The translations under genes were made by a program, and so were the position numbers. DNA of 64,000 nucleotides from Octopus sinensis (taxonomy: Eukaryota), in contig NC_043015.1 of the NCBI RefSeq assembly GCF_006345805.1, positions 47,926,001 through 47,990,000 on the forward strand, written 5' to 3'. Every line of letters begins with the position of its first letter. Positions within the stretch are counted from its first letter, which is position 1. Shown here one piece after another: positions 8,287 through 56,727 of this stretch. The notes under the pieces are model-generated. The model did no database searches, was not told where the DNA came from, and worked only from the letters and a program-made list of their open reading frames with translations.

Positions 8287-8480
8287 ATTCCAGTGTATTG
8301 AATTCTCACATTAGTTTACTGAATACGGAAAACCTACAAGAAAAGTTAAACATAGCAGAAAAACTGAAAGAGACTCACATATCCCAATGGAAAGCTAATC
8401 AAGTTTTAACGTGGCTAGAAGTGGTTCTGAATATGCCAATGTATGGCAAAATGTGCTCTCATAATATCAAAAGTGGAAAG
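8287..8480 (+). CDS. KAZN: Kazrin-like exon, SAM1 N-half (WKANQVLTWLEVVLNMPMYGKMCSHNIKSGK)
   Basis: ttttag acceptor, aag|gtgagt donor, phase 1-0; matches the kazrin SAM1 signature WLEVVM.MPMY...C..NVKSGK. Confidence 0.92.
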
Positions 8481-9297
8481 GTGAGTATTTTATTTCAGGT
8501 TGTAGCTGTTTATTTTTATTTTAATATACTTGTGTGCTTAAGACATTTGCTTTGGAAACAGGCACCTTGGAGTCCCATTGGTCCCATTGTGTGGATGCTG
8601 TTGGCTGTTGTCTTATCCTGTAGCTAATGTGTTGACCAATACTTTGTGATATTGGTCATCAAACACTGAAGGATCCTATCATATCTCTACATACACAGAT
8701 GTATGTGTGTGTGTGTATGCATGATACCTTATTCCAGCCCTTGTGCCTAGAGTAGAAGAGACTATAGACACGGGCATGGCTTTGTGGCTAAGAAGCCTGC
8801 TTTGCAACCTCATGGTTTTACTTTCAGTCACACTATTTGGTACCTTGGGCAAGTGTCTTCTACTGTAGTCCAGGCTGACTAATGCTATGTATGTGAATTT
8901 GATGAGTGGAAATTATTCAGAAACCCTGTGTGTGTGTGTGTGTGTGTGTGTGTCTCCACTCCCATATATTTGATATTTGTTTGCATTCCCATAACTTAAC
9001 AGTTTGGCAAAAGGGACCAATAAAATATGTACTGTACTTAAAAAGGGAAAAAAATAGGTACTGGGAACAATTCTTTTCAACTAAACCCTTTAAGGTGGTG
9101 CCATAGCCTGCCCACAGGCCAATGAATGTAACAAATAAAAGAATAAAAAGATAAAAAGATAGAAAATATCTATTTTGAAGAATTAACTTGTCCTTATTTT
9201 AATAAGTGTTCAAGAGAAAAATTATCTGCATTTTATTTCCAGAATCTTTAATATTCTCCTCTAAAATCTCCCAACAAAATTCCTCTAATTATAACAG

Positions 9298-9410: not shown

Positions 9411-10425
9411 GTAAGATTTATATTTATTTCAAACGCATTTTGTCTGTATATATTACATTTCCATTTAATGTATTTTAAAAATAAGGAATTATTTAAATCA
9501 TTTTATAAACAGCCTTTTTTTTTTTTTGTATTTCTGTTTCCATTACCTTAAAACTATATAGAAGAATGTGAAACAAATGTTGAAATAACTCAAGAGTCTT
9601 TGACTCTTTAGTATTTAAAATGGCCATACCTGGCCAAAATATCATACCTATTTTATGTTCAAACCAACCAGATTTGGCCTCTTACACCTACCCTACAATG
9701 TCATTCTAAAAATATACAACCCTGGTAAGTAGCTTGCTTACGAACCACATGGTTCCAGGTTCAGTACCACTGTGTGACACCTTGGGCAAGTATCTTCTGA
9801 AATAGCCTCGGGCTGACCAAAGCCTTGTGAGTGGATTTGGTAGACGGAAACTAAAAGAAGCCCATAGTATATATTAAATTCAGCTTACATTGAAAGTCAA
9901 CAAAATTTGCCTTAGAAGCATTGAGATGTATTGAAGGATACAGATATGTATTTATCTATGTGTGTATGTCTTTGTGTTGGTGTGTTTACATCCTCATAAC
10001 TTAGCGGGTCAGCAAAAGAGACTAATAGAATAAATACCAGGCTTTAAAAGAAAATAAATACTGGAATTGATTCATTCAACTAAAATTCCTGACGGCAGTG
10101 CTCCAGCATGGCCGCAATCTAATGACTGAAACAAATAAAAGATAAAGATTAAAAAAATCATTTATGTGAATTCTATTTATGAAAGTGTTCTTCCATACAC
10201 AGCTACAGCCAAACACTAGAATCCTTCTTTCCAAATTTTATGTAAGCCACTATCATCCACCCTCATTCTGCTCTGGTAAAACTTCTTCATGCAATGAATG
10301 CACAACCTCGTATTTCTTGAGAGGAAAAGAAATACTGAAATTATAAAACCCCATAAAAATTTTCCAAAAGAAGATAAAAAAAAATCTGCTTTGAAAATTT
10401 GTATAGATTTTTTATAGAAACTACA

Positions 10426-10709
10426 GAGATGTACTTGCATAGCAAGTGATTTGATCTGAGATTGTGTGCTGGAACGAAAACAATTGCAGCGTGGAAGGTG
10501 TTTGTAAGCCATTTAAGAAACACACAAAAACCATTCGATTCACTTCAACATTTAAGTTTAATTTGTCAAAATATTTTCGTCGCTATAAGACCGCGACCTG
10601 TTCACTGACAAAAATTCGTGCTGCATGAATGAAATGTTGAAGTGAATCGAATGGCTTTTGTGTGTTTCTTAAATGGCTTACAAACACCTACCATGCTGCA
10701 ATTGTTTTA
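10426..10709. mobile_element. Asymmetric fold-back element (Penelope pLTR-like), copy 1
   Basis: About 78-bp inverted arms (10477-10553 / 10633-10709); same unit as 56243-56583. Confidence 0.65.
10562..10612 (-). ncRNA. Hammerhead-like motif with a G3:C8 covariant core
   Basis: UUUGUCA-GUGAACA-G-GUCGC(9 nt)GCGAC-GAAA-AUAU-UU-UGACAAA. Confidence 0.55.
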
Positions 10710-10827
10710 TAGAAACTTTTATTATAAAATATTTTCTTGTTTTGCTTCATTTAAAAACATGTAAAACTGTCTTATTAATTCTGCTTTAATTAATGGTAAT
10801 TATTTCCCAAAATCTTTATTTTCCCAG

Positions 10828-11062
10828 GAAATATCTCAAAGCTGTTGAAATCGACCATAATTGGGTCTCTGAAAAATGGATTCCTGACCTCGGTTTGTCT
10901 CAGTATAAAGCAACATTTGAATTACAACTAGTTGATGGCCGCATGTTAAATAATTTGACCAAAAAAGACTTAGAGAAGTATTTTGCAATTCATCGCAAAT
11001 TTCATCATGCCAGTATACTTCATGGAATCGAACTTCTGAGGTCTTTAGATTTTGACAAAGAA
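10828..11062 (+). CDS. KAZN: Kazrin-like exon, SAM2 (IDHNWVSEKWIPDLGLSQY...VDGRMLNNLTKKDLEK...FHHASILHGIELL)
   Basis: ttcccag acceptor, gaa|gtaagt donor, phase 2-0; strong kazrin SAM2 match. Confidence 0.95.
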
Positions 11063-13889: not shown

Positions 13890-14056
13890 GAATATGCTGA
13901 CAAACTGAAGGAAACTGGAGTTCATGGAGCACTAATTGTTATGGAACCATCATTTACTGCAGAGACGCTTGCAACAGCATTAGGAATCCCTCCATCTAAA
14001 TCTTATGTCCGGCGTCATCTTGTTTCAGAACTTGAAGCCCTTATAAAGCCTGCAAG
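13890..14056 (+). CDS. KAZN: Kazrin-like exon, SAM3 (EYADKLKETGVHGALIVMEPSFTAETLATALGIPPSKSYVRRHL)
   Basis: aacag acceptor, ag|gttagt donor, phase 0-2; GVHGA..LGIP..K...RRHL liprin/kazrin SAM3 motif. Confidence 0.95.
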
Positions 14057-14727
14057 GTTAGTATATCATCATCATCGTTTAACGTCCATTCTCCATGCTA
14101 GCATGGGTTGGACGGTTCGAACGGGGATCTGGGAAGCCAGAAGGCTGCACCAGGCTCCAGTCTGATCTGGCAGTGTTTCTAAAGCTGGATGCCCTTCCTA
14201 ACGCCAACCACTCCGTGAGTGTAGTGGGTGCTTTTTATGTGCCACCTGTTTACAGTTCCTGATGTTTAGGTTTCTCATGGTAAAAAAACCCATGAAAACC
14301 ACTCCTTTCTCCATACTACGTATTATCTTTATGAATACCATGTATTGCTATTCTTCCTAATTTTTTGCTCTCCATGTGGCCTGTGGTAAACCAGTGGAAA
14401 AATTTAAGGATATGTTAAGAATACTCATATCATTGAGGAAACCGCTTGGTATTTAAGACCCAGGTGAATCCTGACCGAGGAGATTCTTTTACTCTTTTAC
14501 GTGTTTCAGTCATTTGACTGTGGCCATGCTGGACCACCACCTTTAGTTGGGCAAATCGACCCCAGGACTCATTCTTTGTAAGCCTAGTACTTGTTCTATT
14601 GGTCTCTTTTGCCGAACTGCTAAGTTATGGGGACGTAAACACACCAGCATCGGTTATCAAGCAATGGTGGGGGAGACAAACACAGACACACAAACATATA
14701 TACACACATACATGTGTATATATATAT

Positions 14728-27564: not shown

Positions 27565-29527
27565 TTGGGTCATCCCATAAATAATGTGGTTTTTTCAATT
27601 GCGTGAACTAAAAGTCAGAGAGGGATGGGATAAACAACCTGCATCAACTTCCTATGAAAGCAGGTAGTAATTTTACCTTGTACTTATTCTTAGTGCAAGG
27701 TTTAAAGAGTGCAGTTATTTTAATAGTTATTTTTTCAGAGCTATAATGGAAGTGACAAAAGAGCATATTCAGCATATTTTGCTTTATGAGTTCAATAAAG
27801 GCAACAATGCAAAGAAAAATGAGAGGAATATTAATGTAGTATAAAGGGATTGGATAATAAGTGTAAGCCAGAGTCAACGGTGGTTCCAGAAATTCCAAGC
27901 TGAAAACTACAGCCTAGAAGATGAGCCTCATTCTGGAAGATCTGTAGAGCTCAATGGGGATGTCCTGCAAACCCTGGTGGAACAAAATCTCATCGTAACT
28001 GTTGAGGAACTAGCAGAGAAGCTTGGATTTGGTCAGTCAACCATTCATCGACACCTGCATGCCATCAGAAAAGTCAGCAAATTAGGTCCAAGGATTCCTC
28101 ACAAACTTTCTGAGTCTAATTGTGCACAGAGATTGAATGTGTGCTCTTCTTTGCTGACACATCCCATGAATGAACCTATAGCGTAGAGTTGGGTGAAATT
28201 CCTCTCTCTCATTTATTATATATATATATATATGCACATTCAAATGTAACAGGGAACAGCTAGCTTTTGGCTGCTATTTGGATCCCATTGTGTCCACTAT
28301 TCTGACTGGTTGGTATTGGCACAATTTGTTTCATACTTGACTGCGCCAACTTACCACATATAACCAGTTGGAGTCTCTAAATAGGTTCACGTGGGACAAC
28401 CTGTTGACTACCCTGTTTTGGCCTACAGCTCTTTATAAAAACTCAGCTTTTCCTCATTTTGAGGTCTTTTGGTTCCAGACCTTTTAAGGTCTAGCCACTG
28501 ACCACAAGACACAGCCAGTTCCAGCGACAACACCAGACAACACCACTACAGCAGTCACGTTTACATACTAGCTGTTATACATTCTTTCATTCATGATGGA
28601 TGATAGACAACTCAATGAAGGCATTGTTATTGTTTTACGTGTTTATTTTGCTTAACCTGTTTACGAACTGTCAATATACAGTGGAGTTATACACATTGTG
28701 CGCATCCACCCTAGACGCAGTTCACACTGTTTACTAACAAATAGTGCCAATAGTGGGGATACATTCATACATACGTATACACATAGATATGAATGTGTAA
28801 CACTAACTTTGCATATTGGCACGTGAGAGAGCAAGAGACAAATTGCACTAATACCAACCAATCACTGTAGTGGACACAACAGGGCCCAAAGGTGTGGCCG
28901 AAGGCTAGCTGTTATCTACCACGTCTGTATTTATGTATATATAACAGAGAGAGAGGAATTTCCCTCAAGCGTGCGCTACAAAGGTCTTCACCCATATAAC
29001 GTGTTGTTATCTGTTTGGTGGAATATGAAAGATTTAGTCCCCTTTGAACTTTTAAACCCAAACCAAATTATAACAAAGAAGATCTATTGTAAGTAGCTTG
29101 AGTGGCTTAAGTCAGTGCTAGAAGAACAACGAGCATTTTTGGTTTCAAGACAATAATACTCAGCCACATGCTGTGAAGATGACATTCCGAAGGCTGGAGC
29201 AGTTTGAATGAGAAATGATGCACCATCTGCCATAATAGCAGGTCATTGCCCCATCTGATTATCATTTATTCCGCAGTCTTCAAAATCATTTGAACGGAAA
29301 AAATATAAATTCTGAAGATGAGGTCAGAACAGTACTGAAGGATGAGTGAATTTGGGGGCAGGGGGCCTTGCAAGTCAACCAGATAGATGGAGGAGCATTG
29401 TAGAAATTGAAGGAGAGTATATTTTAGATTAAAAAAGAACTTTAGATTAAAAAAAGAACTTTGTTTATCTTAATTTTGAAAAATAAAAGAAGTATTAAAA
29501 ATTCACATTATTTATGGAATGGCTCAA
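27565..29527 (+). mobile_element. Degraded mariner transposon with a nested 804-bp insert
   Basis: TIRs TTGGGTCATCCCATAAATAATG / CATTATTTATGGAATGGCTCAA flanked by TA; MEVTKEHIQHILLYEFNKG..., GLHP..VLLSVWW and APSDYHLFRSLQNHL remnants. Confidence 0.85.
28177..28980. mobile_element. Unclassified element with about 120-bp imperfect terminal inverted repeats
   Basis: TATAGCG..GAAATTCCTCTCTCTC...GTGTCCACTA versus TAGTGGACAC...GAGAGAGAGGAATTTC..CGCTACA. Confidence 0.65.
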
Positions 29528-46834: not shown

Positions 46835-48109
46835 TTAGGTTGTTAAGAAAGTTCTTGCAGTTTTTAACCTTTAAATTCAGATGCACATATCTCGACTCAA
46901 ACAAAACTTTATTAAGCGAAATAAACTCCATCAGGATCAACACACATTTGCCAATGGGAAACAAGTTTATTTATGCCAGTAGCATAAAAATCCTGCATTC
47001 TGGTGGTGATGAAGTCGATGAAGGCATGTTTGGCATCATCTTGGTTTTTGAAGCATTTCTCACACAGGAAGTTGTTGAGATGCTTGAAAAAGTGGTAGAC
47101 AAGAGGTCTGGTGAGTATGGTGGATGAGGCAGAGTTTCGTAGCCCAATTCGTTCAACTTCTGCAGGGTCAGTTGTGTGACGTGTGGCTGAGCATTGTTGT
47201 GGAGAATTGATCCTTTTCCATTGACCAATGCTGGCTGTTGTTGGAGTTTCTTATGCATTTCATCCATTTGCTGACAGTACTTCTCTGCTGTAATGGTTTC
47301 ACCTGGATCCAAAAAGCTGTGATGGATGAGACCGGCTTCAGACCACCAAACAGTCACCATGACCTTCTTTTGGTGCAACTTTGGCTTCGGGAAGTGCCAT
47401 GGAGCTTTGTTGGTGTCCAACCACTGAGCTGAGCATTGCTGGTTGCTGTAAAGAATCCACTTTTCATCGCAAGTCACAATCTGGTTGAGAAATGGGTCAT
47501 TCTTGTTGCGTAAAAGAAGGGAAGACGACACTTCTAAACGGCGTTTTTTTTTGGTTGTCATTCAATTCGTGCAGCACCCATTTCTCAAGTATTTTTGTTT
47601 TTCCAATCTCTTTCAATTGGTTGGAAATTGTCGTATACGTTACGTCTTATTCAGAAGCAAGCTCTCGAACAGTTGTGCATGGATTGGCTTCGACTAAGGC
47701 TTTTAGTTGGTTGTTGTCAACATCCGATGGCCGAGCACTATGCTTATCATCTTCAAGCCTCTCTTCACCGCTACAAAATTTCTTGAACCACCATTGTGCT
47801 GTACGTTCATTAGTGGTTCCTGGGCCAAATGCATCGATGATATTGCGAGCTGTTTCAGCAGCTTTTCAGCCTAGCTTGAACTGGAATAAGAAAATTGTGC
47901 GAATTTGCTTTTTGTCCATGTCGTATTCAATGTTCCGGAAAAAATAGCCTAATTATTCAAAAAGAAAAAAAGAGTAACACATTAGACAGAGTGAAAAACA
48001 AGCTTTAAAATTATATATAAAGTCAAAGTAATTTAATGAAAATTAATTTGAAAATACATAATTTAAAACCAAAATTTAAAATTCCACAAGAACCTTCTTG
48101 ACAACCTAA
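46835..48109 (-). mobile_element. Near full-length mariner (cecropia/Hsmar1-like) with pseudogenised transposase
   Basis: TA-flanked TIRs TTAGGTTGT..AGAA.GTTCTTG; MDKKQIRTIFLFQFKLG..., IVTCDEKW, KKVMVTVWW and HPPYSPDL motifs with stops and a deletion. Confidence 0.92.
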
Positions 48110-48926
48110 TACATTTATCCATGATGGCACATGGCCTAATGGCTAGGTTGTACTCCTGACCATAAATAAGTGGTTTCAATTCCCAGACCTTACAATGCAT
48201 TGTGTTCTTGAGCAAGGCACTTCATTTCACATTGGTCCAGTCCACTCAGCTGTAAATGAGTAACCCTCAGTTGACTGGTGGCCCATTCAGGGGGAATGTT
48301 GTGATCTTAGTCATTTATATGCCATGCAATCAAGACGGCGAGCTGGCAGAAACGTTAGCATGCCGGGCAAGATGCGTAGCTGTATTTCATCTGTCGCTAC
48401 GTTCTGAGTTCAAATTCCGCCGAGGTCGACTTTGCCTTTCATCCTTTCAGGGTCGATATAATTGACTTAATCCCTTTGTCTGTCCTTGTTTGTCCCCTCT
48501 GTGTTTAGCCCCTTGTGGGTAGTAAAGAAATAGGTATTTCATCTGTCATTACGTTCTGAGTTCAAATTCCGCCAAAGTTGACTTTGCCTTTCATCCTTTC
48601 GGGGTCAATAAATTAAGTACCAGTTATGCACTGGTGTCGATCTAATCGACTTAATCCCTTTGTCTGTCCTTGTTTGTCCCCTCTGTGTTTAGCCCCTTGT
48701 GGGTAGTAAAGAAATATATATGCCATGCAATCCAGGTAACTGGCCCTATGAGTACTACAACATGAGACAGCAATGTCTAGGGAACTTACTTTTGGCTCTT
48801 TTAAAAAAAATTTTTTTTCACATTTATCCATCCATCTCTCTCTCTGTCTGTTTGTCCACCTGTCTGATCTATTTCTGTCAATCAATTTTTTTTTTCTTTT
48901 CTTTTTTATGTTTTTGGTTTTTGAAG

Positions 48927-49215
48927 AACTTGTTTTGATGGAAGAACAGCACATCAGGCTGCAGAAAAACGTGCAAAGTTTGTTGGAGCATAAACGGGAT
49001 ATCGAATATATACTAGGTAGATTGAAGGAGGAAGTAGACGACATTCATGAGAAATATGATCAGCAACGTAGTCGTCATAAGATGCTGGTCACCGAAATAA
49101 ACCATCTTCTTGCCCAGCAGCAATTCACAATGAAACAAATAATGAAACGCCGATCGTCAGACGGTGCACCACCAGAAGTTCAAGAAGATCCCGTCGCTCT
49201 TAAGAATGCAGTCAA
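48927..49215 (+). CDS. TSNAXIP1: TSNAXIP1-like coiled-coil exon (ELVLMEEQH...EVQEDPVALKNAVK)
   Basis: Poly-T tract plus gaag acceptor, aa|gtgcgt donor, phase 1-2; EDPV.L..A.K motif. Confidence 0.85.
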
Positions 49216-50495
49216 GTGCGTTTTTGCTTATCACTTCCATCACTACCATTTACCACTGCCCCCACCCCTACCACCACCACATAGCTGCATCATAGCTGTT
49301 ACTGTTCATTAGTCATCTATCGTTATCATTATCATACATATCAAAAAGGGTGGGGTGCTGGCAGAATCGTTAGCATGTTGGGCAAAATGCTTAGTGGTAT
49401 TTCGTCTGCCGCTATGTTCTGAGTTCAAATTCCGCCGAAGTCAACTTTGCCTTTCATCCTTTCGGGGTTGATAAATTAAGTACCAGTTACGCACTGGTGT
49501 CAATCTAATCGACTTAATCCCTTTGTCTGTCCTTGTTTGTCCCCTCTATGTTTAGCCCCTTGTGGGCAATAAAGAAATAGGTATTTCATCTGCCGCTATG
49601 TTCTGAATTCAAATTCCACCAAGGTCGACTCTGGGGTCGATATAATCAACTTAACCCCCACCCCTAAGCTGCCCTTAGATTTGAAATCATTATCATACGT
49701 ATGACCGTACAACAGGCACCCATGCCAACACCCTTGCTTGCGAAGACATGTTGGGGCAAGCGAAATCGAAATCGAATTGAACCAGCCAGGATCCCTGGTC
49801 TGGTGGTACGTAAAAAGCACCATCCGACTCGTGGCCGATGCCAGCACCGCCTCGTCTGGCTTCCGTGCCGGTGGCACATAAAATACACCAATCCGACCGT
49901 GGCCGTTGCCAGCCTCGCCTGGCACCTGTGCAGGTGGCAAGTAAAAAGCACCCACTACACTCACGGAGTGGTTGGCGTTAGGAAGGGCATCCAGCTGTAG
50001 AAACACTGCCAGATAAGACTGGAGCCTGGTGCAGCCTTCTGGCTTCCCAGATCCCCGGTCGAACCGTCCAACCCATGCTAGCATGGAGAACGGACGTTAA
50101 ACGATGATGATTAATCTCTATTAATCGTGTAGGTGCAGGAGTGGCTGTGTGGTAAGTAGCTTGATTGCCAACAACATGGTTCTGGGTTCAGTCCCACTGC
50201 GTGGCACCTTGGGCAAGTGTCTTCTACTATAGCCTCGGGCCAAGGTTCAATGAAATAAGTACCAGTTGAGCACCGGGGTCAATGTAATCAGGTAGCCCCC
50301 ACCCCACCTCACAGCCACACCCCTGCAAGAAAAAATTTTAGGCCTTGTGCCTGTGAGCACAAAGAATATTAATTAGCGCTGTTTATTTTTAAGGTTTGTT
50401 AATAAAGATGTTATCGTTTGCTGAAATTAAATGCTTAATAACATCGAATAGAATTTGAAGAGAGAGAGAACTCTTTCCACTCATTTTTATTGCAG

Positions 50496-50855: not shown

Positions 50856-50917
<62 letters not shown>

Positions 50918-50955
50918 TAAATGAAAGAATGGAGTTGAACGACGAATTAACAAAA

Positions 50956-51054
50956 TTCCTTTATTTTCGACATATGTTTCGAAGGCTGCATATTCCTAAT
51001 TTCGAAGGAATAAGGGGTGCATTATGCCGCCTTCTCATCAGGAAAAACAAGGAA
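50956..51054 (-). ncRNA. Type I hammerhead ribozyme, intact core
   Basis: Minus strand reads UUCCUUGUUUUUC-CUGAUGA-GAAGGC...GCCUUC-GAAAC-AUAU-GUC-GAAAAUAAAGGAA; stems I and II and a palindromic stem III are all present. Confidence 0.85.
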
Positions 51055-51689
51055 CTTATGTCAGCATCAAGATGCACAAAAACTTTTAGATGACTGCCCA
51101 CACGGAGCCCATAGTGATATATTTATATATATATATATAATTATTAATTTAACATATAAATTACCTATAAGATTTTATTTCATGCTGACTACCTGATATA
51201 ATCATTAACGTGATTTTATCCTTCAATTCTATTAAGAAGAATATATATATATATATATGGCGGTTCCCCAGTATGGCCACAGATCGTGAGCTGAAACTAG
51301 ATGAAAATGAAAAAAAATATATATATATGCACATAGATACATGAGGGAGTGCTGAGAAGTTTCTGGCTTTGGGTTAAAAACAATACAGGAGAATCAGTCA
51401 GTTATGATTTTATTCAACGTATCCCTCTCTCATATACACACACTTATTGCAGTGGTCCTTAAGATTTTCTAAGCCCTGTAAAAGAACTTGGATGATTGGG
51501 CCTCCAACCAAGCCCTTTGCAATATCCTTTAAGCCAGGGTCTTTTCAGCACCCCCTCATACAATTAGCTTTATAACTTTGGTCTATAAAATCTAGAGATA
51601 TCAGAACTATGAGTACATCAGATAAATCACCTACCCCTCTTCTCCATCCACAATTCCTAGAGGTTCACGGTGGGTAGAGTTCACAGATG

Positions 51690-55608: not shown

Positions 55609-56242
55609 GTTAATATGTTTTTTGTGTCTGTGTTTGTCCCCACCAACATCGCTTGACAACATATGCTGGTGTGTTTACATCCCCATAACTTAGCAGCTTG
55701 GCAAAAGAGACCAATAGAATAAGTACTAGGCTTACAAAGAATAAGTCCTGGGGTCGATTTTCTCGACTAAAGTCGGTGCTCCAGCATGGCCACAGTCAAA
55801 TGACTGAAACGAGTAAAAGAGTATCATACATTCACATCACAGTATGAATTCTGATCCTGAACAACACTCAAATGGTCTCTTGCTATTGAAAAATTTGATA
55901 AAAACAAAACAAAGTCCTCTTTGGCATTGGTAAGTCTGTTAACGATGTTTTGGTATGGATAACTTGCATGGCAAATATCTTCTGCTCTAGCCTCTGGCTG
56001 ACTAAAGTCTTATGAGATTTGATTGACAGAAAGTGAAAGAAACTTGCGTGTGTGTTGGTAGGTAGGTAGGTAGGTATGAATGTTCTTGTCTGTTTATAAA
56101 TATTAAAATTTTTCTGAAGAAGGAGCTGGTTCCTAACAAATATACAAAGCTCCCTTGTTGGAATGCAGATAACGAAATCAATGTCACATTTTAAACCTGT
56201 GAAAAAATCTTGCATAGTTTTAACCAAAACCTAAAACTTTAT

Positions 56243-56583
56243 AACAATTGCAGCGTGGAAGGTGTTTATAAGCCATTTAAGAAAAACACAAAAACCGTTA
56301 GATTCACTTCAACATTTAAATTTAATTTGCCAAAATATTTTCTTCGCTTTGAGACCGCGACCTGTTCACTGACAAAATTTCGTGCTGCATCTCAATTTTG
56401 TCAGTGAACAGGTCGCAGTCTCAAAGCGAAGAAAATATTTTGACAAATTAAATTTAAATGTTGCAGTGAATCTAACGATTTTTGTGTGTTTCTTAAATGG
56501 CTTTTAAACATCTTCCACGCTGCAATTGTTTTCGTTCCAGCACACGATCTCAGATCAGGTCGCTTGCTATGCAAGTACATCTC
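56243..56583. mobile_element. Asymmetric fold-back element (Penelope pLTR-like), copy 2
   Basis: About 137-bp near-perfect inverted arms (56243-56379 / 56394-56530) plus a one-sided 53-bp extension. Confidence 0.7.
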
Positions 56584-56727
56584 CATAATAAAACTTAATA
56601 TTTCATGATAAAATGAACAATGGGTAAATATATACATACCTCACTTGGTAGTCATAGTTGTTATATATACCTAAAATAATTTTTCTTTTTAAGAAAAACT
56701 AACACTAGTTTATATCTCGTTGTTTAG

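What the first reader, a model, noticed from the sequence alone, without database searches (positions are those of the whole stretch)
10562..10612. Hammerhead-like family with a compensatory G3:C8 core (GUGAACA instead of CUGANGA)
Seen: a 7-bp stem I (UUUGUCA/UGACAAA) encloses GUGAACA, one extra G, a 5-bp stem II (GUCGC/GCGAC), GAAA, a palindromic AAUAUU stem III and a UUU triplet. The same motif occurs twice more at about 56326-56377 (-) and 56397-56447 (+). Known: C3 and G8 form a tertiary Watson-Crick pair in the active hammerhead, and swapping both can rescue activity. Inference: both positions are changed in exactly the way that preserves this pair, pointing to a natural variant ribozyme invisible to CUGANGA pattern searches. 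This is the best candidate for something undescribed in the window. Caveat: the UUU triplet and A-U-only stem III are weak.
Basis: partly seen in the sequence, partly recalled or inferred. Interest (0 to 1): 0.8.

Follow-up and report, generated by a model that had tools for sequence, protein, structure and literature searches.

The report
Swapped-core hammerhead in Penelope retrotransposon
This is a small hammerhead-shaped RNA motif with two paired core letters swapped, carried in more than 5,800 copies by a Penelope-type jumping gene; related jumping genes keep the same pair in other forms, so it is likely a natural, probably slow self-cutting variant, although cutting has not been tested.

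Summary
The motif is real but lies on the minus strand. It is the minimal type I hammerhead in the 5' leader/pseudo-LTR of a Penelope-like retrotransposon: a pLTR-ORF-pLTR unit of 4,361 bases (L288) and an open 1,042-aa RT + GIY-YIG frame (L201) carry it. The exact G3:C8 core occurs 5,840 times in the genome. It is kept in an older subfamily that differs at about 21% of downstream positions. Related families keep the same fold with U3:A8, U3·G8 or C3:G8, and two distant relatives have C3:G8. So the swap is derived and compensatory. The extra nucleotide, A-U palindrome and U17 site are normal for these ribozymes. Against a needed catalytic role: inserted copies come from uncut RNA (0 of 77 start at the cut site), about 150 copies carry G3·G8, and the two other window copies have a broken G10.1-C11.1 pair. 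Cleavage is untested. I found no natural G3:C8 hammerhead in the papers I could search; several key papers were not held. This scan noted G3:C8 motifs before on other DNA (protist elements, a phage; unchecked). Verdict: new variant of a known kind.

The parts
10562..10612 (-). Minimal type I hammerhead motif with G3:C8 core (G3 10605, C8 10600, extra G 10598, stem II 10597-10593/10583-10579, palindromic stem III 10575-10570, U17 10569)
10423..10626 (-). Short retrocopy of the 5' leader of the Penelope-like element: leader, hammerhead, first ~30 codons of the ORF, ending at the distal 3' end
10426..10512 (-). Start of the element's ORF (ATG at 10512; 86% identical to residues 1-29 of the ORF in L288)
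10632..10704 (+). Inverted partial arm of the same insertion, without the hammerhead, ending at the proximal 3' end
10410..10422 (.). Left copy of a 13-base A+T-rich target-site duplication
   Evidence: read from sequence
10705..10717 (.). Right copy of the 13-base target-site duplication
   Evidence: read from sequence
56240..56393 (-). Inverted arm of the second insertion; begins with the extra G before AGATG; ends at the proximal 3' end
56326..56376 (-). G3:C8 hammerhead copy with C11.1>A (56343) and a U·G in stem I
56394..56588 (+). Direct arm of the second insertion, ending at the distal 3' end; flanked with the inverted arm by an 8-base duplication (56232-56239, 56589-56596)
56397..56447 (+). 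G3:C8 hammerhead copy with C11.1>A (56430)

Best explanation
The motif is the hammerhead RNA in the 5' leader of a Penelope-like retrotransposon family, with a natural G3:C8 core that likely still allows slow self-cleavage after U17 when two copies pair through their palindromes, possibly helped by the element's protein. Shown: the motif sits about 20 bases after the fixed 5' end of the short copies and 92 bases before the ORF's ATG (counted from G3), and recurs 4,361 bases later in a pLTR-ORF-pLTR unit; the ORF encodes RT, a CX3CxxC linker and a GIY-YIG endonuclease; short copies have two 3' ends about 55 bases apart inside the ORF start, inversions and target-site duplications. Inferred: transcription starts at the A of AGATG (TATA-like box at -30; an untemplated G, probably from the cap, precedes it in 22 of 31 copies); the element's RT starts at the two internal sites and copies uncut, capped RNA back to its 5' end, which gives the thousands of ~200-base copies, including those in the window. 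Inferred: the ancestral pair was C3:G8; the lineage reached G3:C8 through a tolerated mismatch and then kept it. Predicted: cleavage needs a dimer (two hammerheads of one read-through transcript, or two RNAs); it would cut off the capped first ~60 bases and could release unit-length RNA or limit expression, but is not needed for insertion.
For: Autonomous element: G3:C8 motif downstream of the endonuclease on the same strand in 20 of 30 loci picked only by endonuclease DNA, a mutated form in 1 more; open 1,042-aa frame with RT, CX3CxxC, GIY/YIG and HxxxxH motifs, profile match 99.1% to a protein with Pfam RVT_1 + GIY-YIG; two motifs 4,361 bases apart around the ORF in L288. Copy number: 5,840 exact core matches, control 0. 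Old subfamily: among 30 loci picked by downstream sequence only, 14 hold the core in register, 12 with G3 and 9 with C8 (4 T, 1 A, my count); its column majority differs from the young family at about 16 of 76 downstream columns but at 0 of 14 core positions, with the palindrome shortened to AAUU (part of that set was picked by the 5' core). Sister families: U3:A8 in a family whose ORF is ~50% identical; U3·G8 (23 T and 16 G of 30 loci picked by downstream sequence); C3:G8 (3 distinct intact motifs). Metagenome relatives at 44% and 29% identity have C3:G8 with the same extra G and a palindrome (2 of 9 loci). Pair count on 9 hand-picked copies: 3:8 paired in 9 of 9, four pair types. Literature: C3G/G8C partly restores cleavage of a Penelope hammerhead, which needs the element's protein (PMC11167929); min-hammerheads cleave weakly as dimers (PMC4209133).
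Against: No cleavage data. 0 of 77 copies picked by a downstream anchor start at the predicted cut site; 48 start within 5 bases of the fixed 5' end. About 150 copies have G3·G8 (42 of the first 100 listed of 364, my count), 3-4 times the 0.72% transversion baseline, on several subfamily backgrounds (19 of 20 fetched loci parsed), which suggests templates with a broken pair can move. Both arms at 56.3 kb share C11.1>A. The stem III duplex is very weak (-0.2 kcal/mol). The published consensus has A, C or U at the extra position, not G (1 G among the Fig. S3 rows read). In the Anolis element, catalytic mutants did not affect insertion and no reads ended at the cut site. The 9-row alignment is small, related and hand-picked, so its shuffle control is not a probability. 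DNA homology of the U3·G8 family outside the hammerhead is weak (best 6 bits).
Confidence: 0.68

Rival explanations
1. The motif is a hammerhead descendant that no longer cuts; its fold is kept as a structural or protein-binding module of the element's RNA leader.
For: All sampled copies come from uncut RNA; G3·G8 and C11.1>A templates were apparently copied; hammerhead mutants did not affect insertion in vitro in PMC11167929; the motif combines several features expected to slow cleavage (swapped pair, weak stem III).
Against: The 3:8 pair is kept in four forms across related families, and this tertiary pair matters for the active conformation (PMC8495972 passage; otherwise recalled). G5, A6, G12-A14 and the palindromic stem III are also kept.
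Confidence: 0.22
2. The two changes were fixed by drift in one successful source element; the pairing is a coincidence and nothing maintains it.
For: Among copies the core mutates as fast as other positions (24/690 vs 298/8295); copies are not independent evidence; single-mismatch templates seem mobile.
Against: G3:C8 is shared by an old subfamily and the young ones despite ~21% change elsewhere (chance of 0 changes in 14 positions about 4%); every family examined pairs at 3:8.
Confidence: 0.07
3. The core letters are set by an overlapping signal (reading frame, promoter or splice donor) and not by RNA structure.
For: An upstream ATG lies at +3 of the leader, and A9-G-G10.1-U reads like a weak splice donor; the D. 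virilis pLTR has an intron next to its hammerhead.
Against: The main ORF starts downstream, directly after a TAA; the upstream frame differs between subfamilies (stem I flank and loop II differ in length); the donor-like word is absent in L549 and L554; such signals do not predict 3:8 covariation.
Confidence: 0.03

Closest known systems
Minimal type I hammerheads of metazoan Penelope-like elements (Cervera and de la Pena 2014, PMC4209133; read: main text parts 1-2 of 4, supplement file 2 parts 1-2 of 3)
   Same: Type I topology in the pLTR, extra nucleotide between 9 and 10.1, G10.1-C11.1, palindromic stem III, frequent U17, mostly solo or inverted copies, natural U3-A8 variant.
   Different: Core is G3:C8; none of the Fig. 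S3 rows read has it (they are C3-G8, two U3-A8-type rows and one U3·G8 row). Extra nucleotide is G, against a consensus of A/C/U.
Poseidon element PAc of Anolis carolinensis (Frangieh et al. 2024, PMC11167929; read parts 1-2 of 4)
   Same: Hammerhead at the pLTR-ORF junction, two RT start sites inside the ORF start that define the tail, A+T-rich targets, uncut RNA as template; engineered C3G/G8C partly rescues cleavage.
   Different: PAc has the canonical core and its ORF starts inside the hammerhead; here G3:C8 is the natural state, the ATG is downstream, and the protein has the CX2-5CxxC linker that Penelope/Poseidon lack.
Neptune/Nematis clades of C-terminal-endonuclease PLEs (Craig et al. 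2021, PMC8557442; passages)
   Same: RT then CX2-5CxxC linker then GIY-YIG with CCHH-type residues; inverted and tandem insertions with a tail; (TA)n-rich targets.
   Different: Clade not resolved here (no labelled references available); tail about 55 bases, against 30-40 described.
Natural U3-A8 hammerheads (Perreault et al. 2011, PMC3088659; section 8 read)
   Same: Natural covariation of the 3:8 pair.
   Different: Double transition to U-A there; double transversion to G-C here.

Membership tests
Hammerhead ribozyme, type I minimal (PLE) | Three-way junction with stems I and II | tested here: met
   Minimum-energy fold, pair probabilities; pair counts
Hammerhead ribozyme, type I minimal (PLE) | U4 G5 A6 A9, G12 A13 A14, A15.1-U16.1, H17 | tested here: met
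Hammerhead ribozyme, type I minimal (PLE) | Literal C3 and G8 of the CUGANGA consensus | tested here: not met
   G3 and C8 in 5,840 exact matches; no Rfam hammerhead match
Hammerhead ribozyme, type I minimal (PLE) | Base pair between positions 3 and 8 | tested here: met
   G:C here; U:A, U·G, C:G in related families
Hammerhead ribozyme, type I minimal (PLE) | Extra nucleotide after A9 and G10.1-C11.1 | tested here: met
   Met at 10562-10612 (extra G); C11.1 lost in the two copies at 56.3 kb
Hammerhead ribozyme, type I minimal (PLE) | Palindromic stem III allowing a dimer | tested here: met
   AAUAUU in young, AAUU in old subfamily; duplex weak, and the computed dimer minimum does not use it
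Hammerhead ribozyme, type I minimal (PLE) | Self-cleavage after N17 | not testable with these tools
   Only assembled contigs were available
Penelope-like element, C-terminal endonuclease | One ORF with RT followed by GIY-YIG endonuclease | tested here: met
   Pfam alone gave no hit on P0001
Penelope-like element, C-terminal endonuclease | Pseudo-LTR repeats flanking the ORF and holding a hammerhead | tested here: met
   L288, motifs at 2065 and 6426
Penelope-like element, C-terminal endonuclease | Inverted insertions, optional tail, A+T-rich targets with duplications | tested here: met
   duplications of 7+ bases in only 6 of 50 copies by a strict script whose set included inverted and full-length copies
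Neptune/Nematis clade | CX2-5CxxC linker before the endonuclease | tested here: met
   residues 913-920 of P0001
Neptune/Nematis clade | Placement in an RT tree with labelled references | not tested
   No labelled reference proteins were obtained
Non-LTR retrozyme | Head-to-tail tandem units each holding a hammerhead (circular RNA origin) | tested here: not met
   Copies are dispersed monomers or inverted pairs with fixed ends; a few local arrays on C30 only

The most novel reading that the evidence does not exclude
A natural G3:C8 hammerhead is the fixed, working ribozyme of a recently active animal retrotransposon, and one element clade has cycled through all of C:G, U·G, U:A and G:C at the 3:8 pair, tuning a deliberately slow, dimer- or protein-dependent switch that removes the capped leader of its own RNA.
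Probability: 0.35. Interest if true: 0.7.

Novelty: new variant of a known kind. Interest (0 to 1): 0.5.

Why it matters
Searches for hammerheads use CUGANGA (sometimes UUGANAA), so families like this are missed; reports that some Penelope-like clades 'lack' hammerheads used such descriptors (PMC8557442 methods passage) and could be rechecked with a free 3:8 pair. The clade offers a natural series of 3:8 pairs in one scaffold, with a young element and an open protein frame, so the open question of what these weak ribozymes do for Penelope elements can be tested directly. It does not define a new ribozyme class.

Tried and rejected
Rfam scan: no hammerhead model matched. Pfam on P0001: no family at E<=0.01; identity rests on motifs, homologues and the profile comparison. 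PDB sequence search: two weak reverse-transcriptase matches only. Sequencing runs: no RNA holder listed; only contigs could be laid, so ends, strand and level are unknown. Contigs of runs labelled organisms A, C and D show the G3:C8 core in loose-end consensus lines, but the difference table was cut (48 rows hidden), so I do not use it as a test of invariance. A 4-kb tandem on C1 was a local duplication, not a full element. The C24 pair was also a duplication. Splicing as the cause of the fixed 5' end: the upstream sequence looks like a branch point and acceptor, but short copies keep the AG and gain a G with no shared exon upstream, so a start site fits better; not settled. Per-copy conservation as a test of function: rejected, since copies decay neutrally. 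Of 20 more diverged endonuclease loci, 9 (L379-L383, L385, L386, L390 and, apart from an inverted arm, L398) gave no G3:C8 motif; L379 and L380 gave the U3:A8 motif. Of 9 metagenome loci, 6 gave no motif near the ORF ends and 1 (L551) an irregular one. Literature: searches returned no natural G3:C8 hammerhead. Not held, so not read: Lunse 2017, Przybilski and Hammann 2007, Nelson and Uhlenbeck 2008, Hammann 2012, Martick and Scott 2006; Jimenez 2011 was not read; supplement file 1 of PMC4209133 and the supplements of PMC8557442 and PMC3088659 were not seen. Any of these may list such a variant.

Full report
Observation. It folds into stems I and II on its own and within the whole leader. A strict descriptor finds it and one canonical hammerhead in the window and nothing in 60 resampled windows. 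Rfam does not detect it. The two copies at 56.3 kb are real but both have C11.1>A.

Local context. Each site is a composite insertion of a ~200-base repeat and an inverted partial arm, flanked by a target-site duplication of 13 bases (10410-10422, 10705-10717) or 8 bases. The first lies in an intron of a plus-strand gene whose exons encode SAM domains, about 125 bases before the next exon, with the hammerhead antisense to that gene. Nothing suggests a host function.

The family. The window lies in G000, a 2.7-Gb genome; the closest named protein homologue is from Octopus vulgaris (63% over the RT region), so the host is probably a cephalopod (inference). Exact counts: 5,840 for an 18-base core word, 4,764 for a downstream 23-mer, 1,078 for a 35-mer; reversed controls 0. 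At 3.6% divergence per site the true number is probably above 10,000 arms (inference). In 77 distinct copies picked by the downstream anchor, 48 begin within 5 bases of one fixed point, none begins at the predicted cut site, about 29 end ~35 bases into the ORF and about 46 end ~90 bases into it. Two 3' ends inside the ORF start are the tail signature explained by internal RT initiation in the Anolis element (PMC11167929). Upstream of the fixed start, full-length copies have a TATA-like box at -30; 22 of 31 copies without the upstream pLTR carry a G before AGATG where the template has C or T. I read this as copying of a capped, uncut transcript.

The autonomous element. L160 joins an endonuclease-coding fragment to the motif. 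Of 30 loci picked by endonuclease DNA, 20 have the G3:C8 motif downstream on the same strand and 1 a mutated form. L201 has an open 1,042-aa frame with the DKG, RT3-5, CX3CxxC, GIY/YIG and HxxxxH motifs; an alignment of 30 of the 94 proteins in hand matches a Pfam RVT_1 + GIY-YIG protein at 99.1%. L288 is a pLTR-ORF-pLTR unit of 4,361 bases; its ATG lies 92 bases after G3 and directly after a TAA, and that copy has a frameshift near residue 605. By the linker the element belongs with Neptune or Nematis (PMC8557442 passages); no tree was built.

Is the swap compensatory? Among copies the core changes as fast as other positions (24/690 vs 298/8295), as expected for dead insertions, so only source lineages are informative. 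Two young subfamilies differ in loop II and by about 15% in the endonuclease protein and both have G3:C8. An old subfamily is clearly homologous downstream (up to 48 bits, shuffles none), differs at about 16 of 76 downstream columns, has C at the free position 7, a sixth pair in stem II and the palindrome AAUU, and keeps G3:C8 and all 14 core positions; in an unbiased set 12 of 14 readable cores have G3 and 9 have C8. A family whose ORF is ~50% identical has U3:A8 with the same extra G, stem II and AAUU, and a different, compensated stem I. Another has U3·G8, though its homology outside the hammerhead is weak; another has C3:G8. Two metagenome relatives have C3:G8, an extra G and a palindrome, one of them about 45 bases before a repeat of its ORF start. 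On 9 hand-picked natural copies the 3:8 pair is formed in 9 of 9 with four pair types, and sliding the partners destroys the signal; this is a small related sample, not a significance test. The simplest reading is an ancestral C3:G8 and a derived, maintained G3:C8.

Evidence against a needed catalytic role. Single changes exist: 364 at position 8, 286 at position 3 (with 7 and 8 free), 171 at position 7. G at position 8 is 3-4 times over the baseline and lies on several backgrounds, three copies sharing a further stem II change; some source RNAs with a broken pair probably moved, or the site is a mutation hot spot. Sampled insertions come from uncut RNA. In the Anolis element the ribozyme needs the protein and is dispensable for insertion in vitro. 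Min-hammerheads cleave weakly even as dimers. G8C lowers the rate 10^5-fold and C3G restores it only in part (PMC8495972 passage).

Mechanism. Most likely a slow ribozyme that cuts after U17 when two palindromes pair, perhaps with protein help, removing the capped first ~60 bases or releasing unit-length RNA from read-through transcripts; mobility uses the uncut fraction (0.68). Rivals: non-cutting structural module (0.22), drift (0.07), overlapping signal (0.03).

Novelty. PLE hammerheads, the extra nucleotide, palindromes, U17 and natural U3-A8 are published (PMC4209133; PMC3088659 section 8). Engineered G3:C8 is published. I found no natural G3:C8 in eight library searches or in the Fig. 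S3 rows of PMC4209133, but five key papers were not held and some supplements were not seen. Other papers opened: PMC3884650, PMC6765202, PMC6155905 (passages), bioRxiv 10.64898/2026.07.22.740005 (part 1 of 5). Earlier notes of this scan describe G3:C8 motifs in protist elements and a phage; I did not check them. What this case adds is thousands of copies, the autonomous element, and a series of related families with different 3:8 pairs. Verdict: new variant of a known kind, interest 0.5.

Noticed in passing
window ~50915-51115 (-), core C3 at 51041: A second, unrelated short repeat with a canonical CUGAUGA hammerhead, long stem II and palindromic ACAUAUGU stem III, between (TA)n runs; very young (98-100% identity, 2,226 candidates), often in inverted pairs. 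Probably another PLE family.
   Followed up: partly
L379, L380, L399-L428: A young family (2,406 candidates) with a U3:A8 core and a 3-bp stem I, downstream of a PLE ORF about 50% identical to P0001.
   Followed up: yes
L289-L318, L489-L518: An old family with a U3·G8 core and a stem III that would dimerise through tandem G·A pairs; no ORF linked yet.
   Followed up: partly
L429-L448; G000 genome-wide: Excess of C8>G copies (about 150, 3-4 times baseline) across subfamilies; cause unexplained.
   Followed up: partly
L551:2490-2545: Metagenome relative with a hammerhead-like motif that has U3:A8 and C in place of A9; single copy.
   Followed up: no
L226-L232 (C30 and unplaced contigs): Local tandem arrays of ~170- and ~400-base leader pieces, several with altered cores.
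   Followed up: no
window 8288-8481, 10829-11062, 13890-14058 (+): Exons of a host gene with SAM domains (Pfam SAM_1/SAM_2 on two of them); resembles the kazrin/liprin type (recalled, not tested).
   Followed up: partly
window 46971-47561 (-), 27845-28186 (+): Mariner-like transposase remnants (recognised by eye, not tested).
   Followed up: no
window 48752-49312 (+): Probable coiled-coil exon of another host gene; no Pfam match.
   Followed up: no
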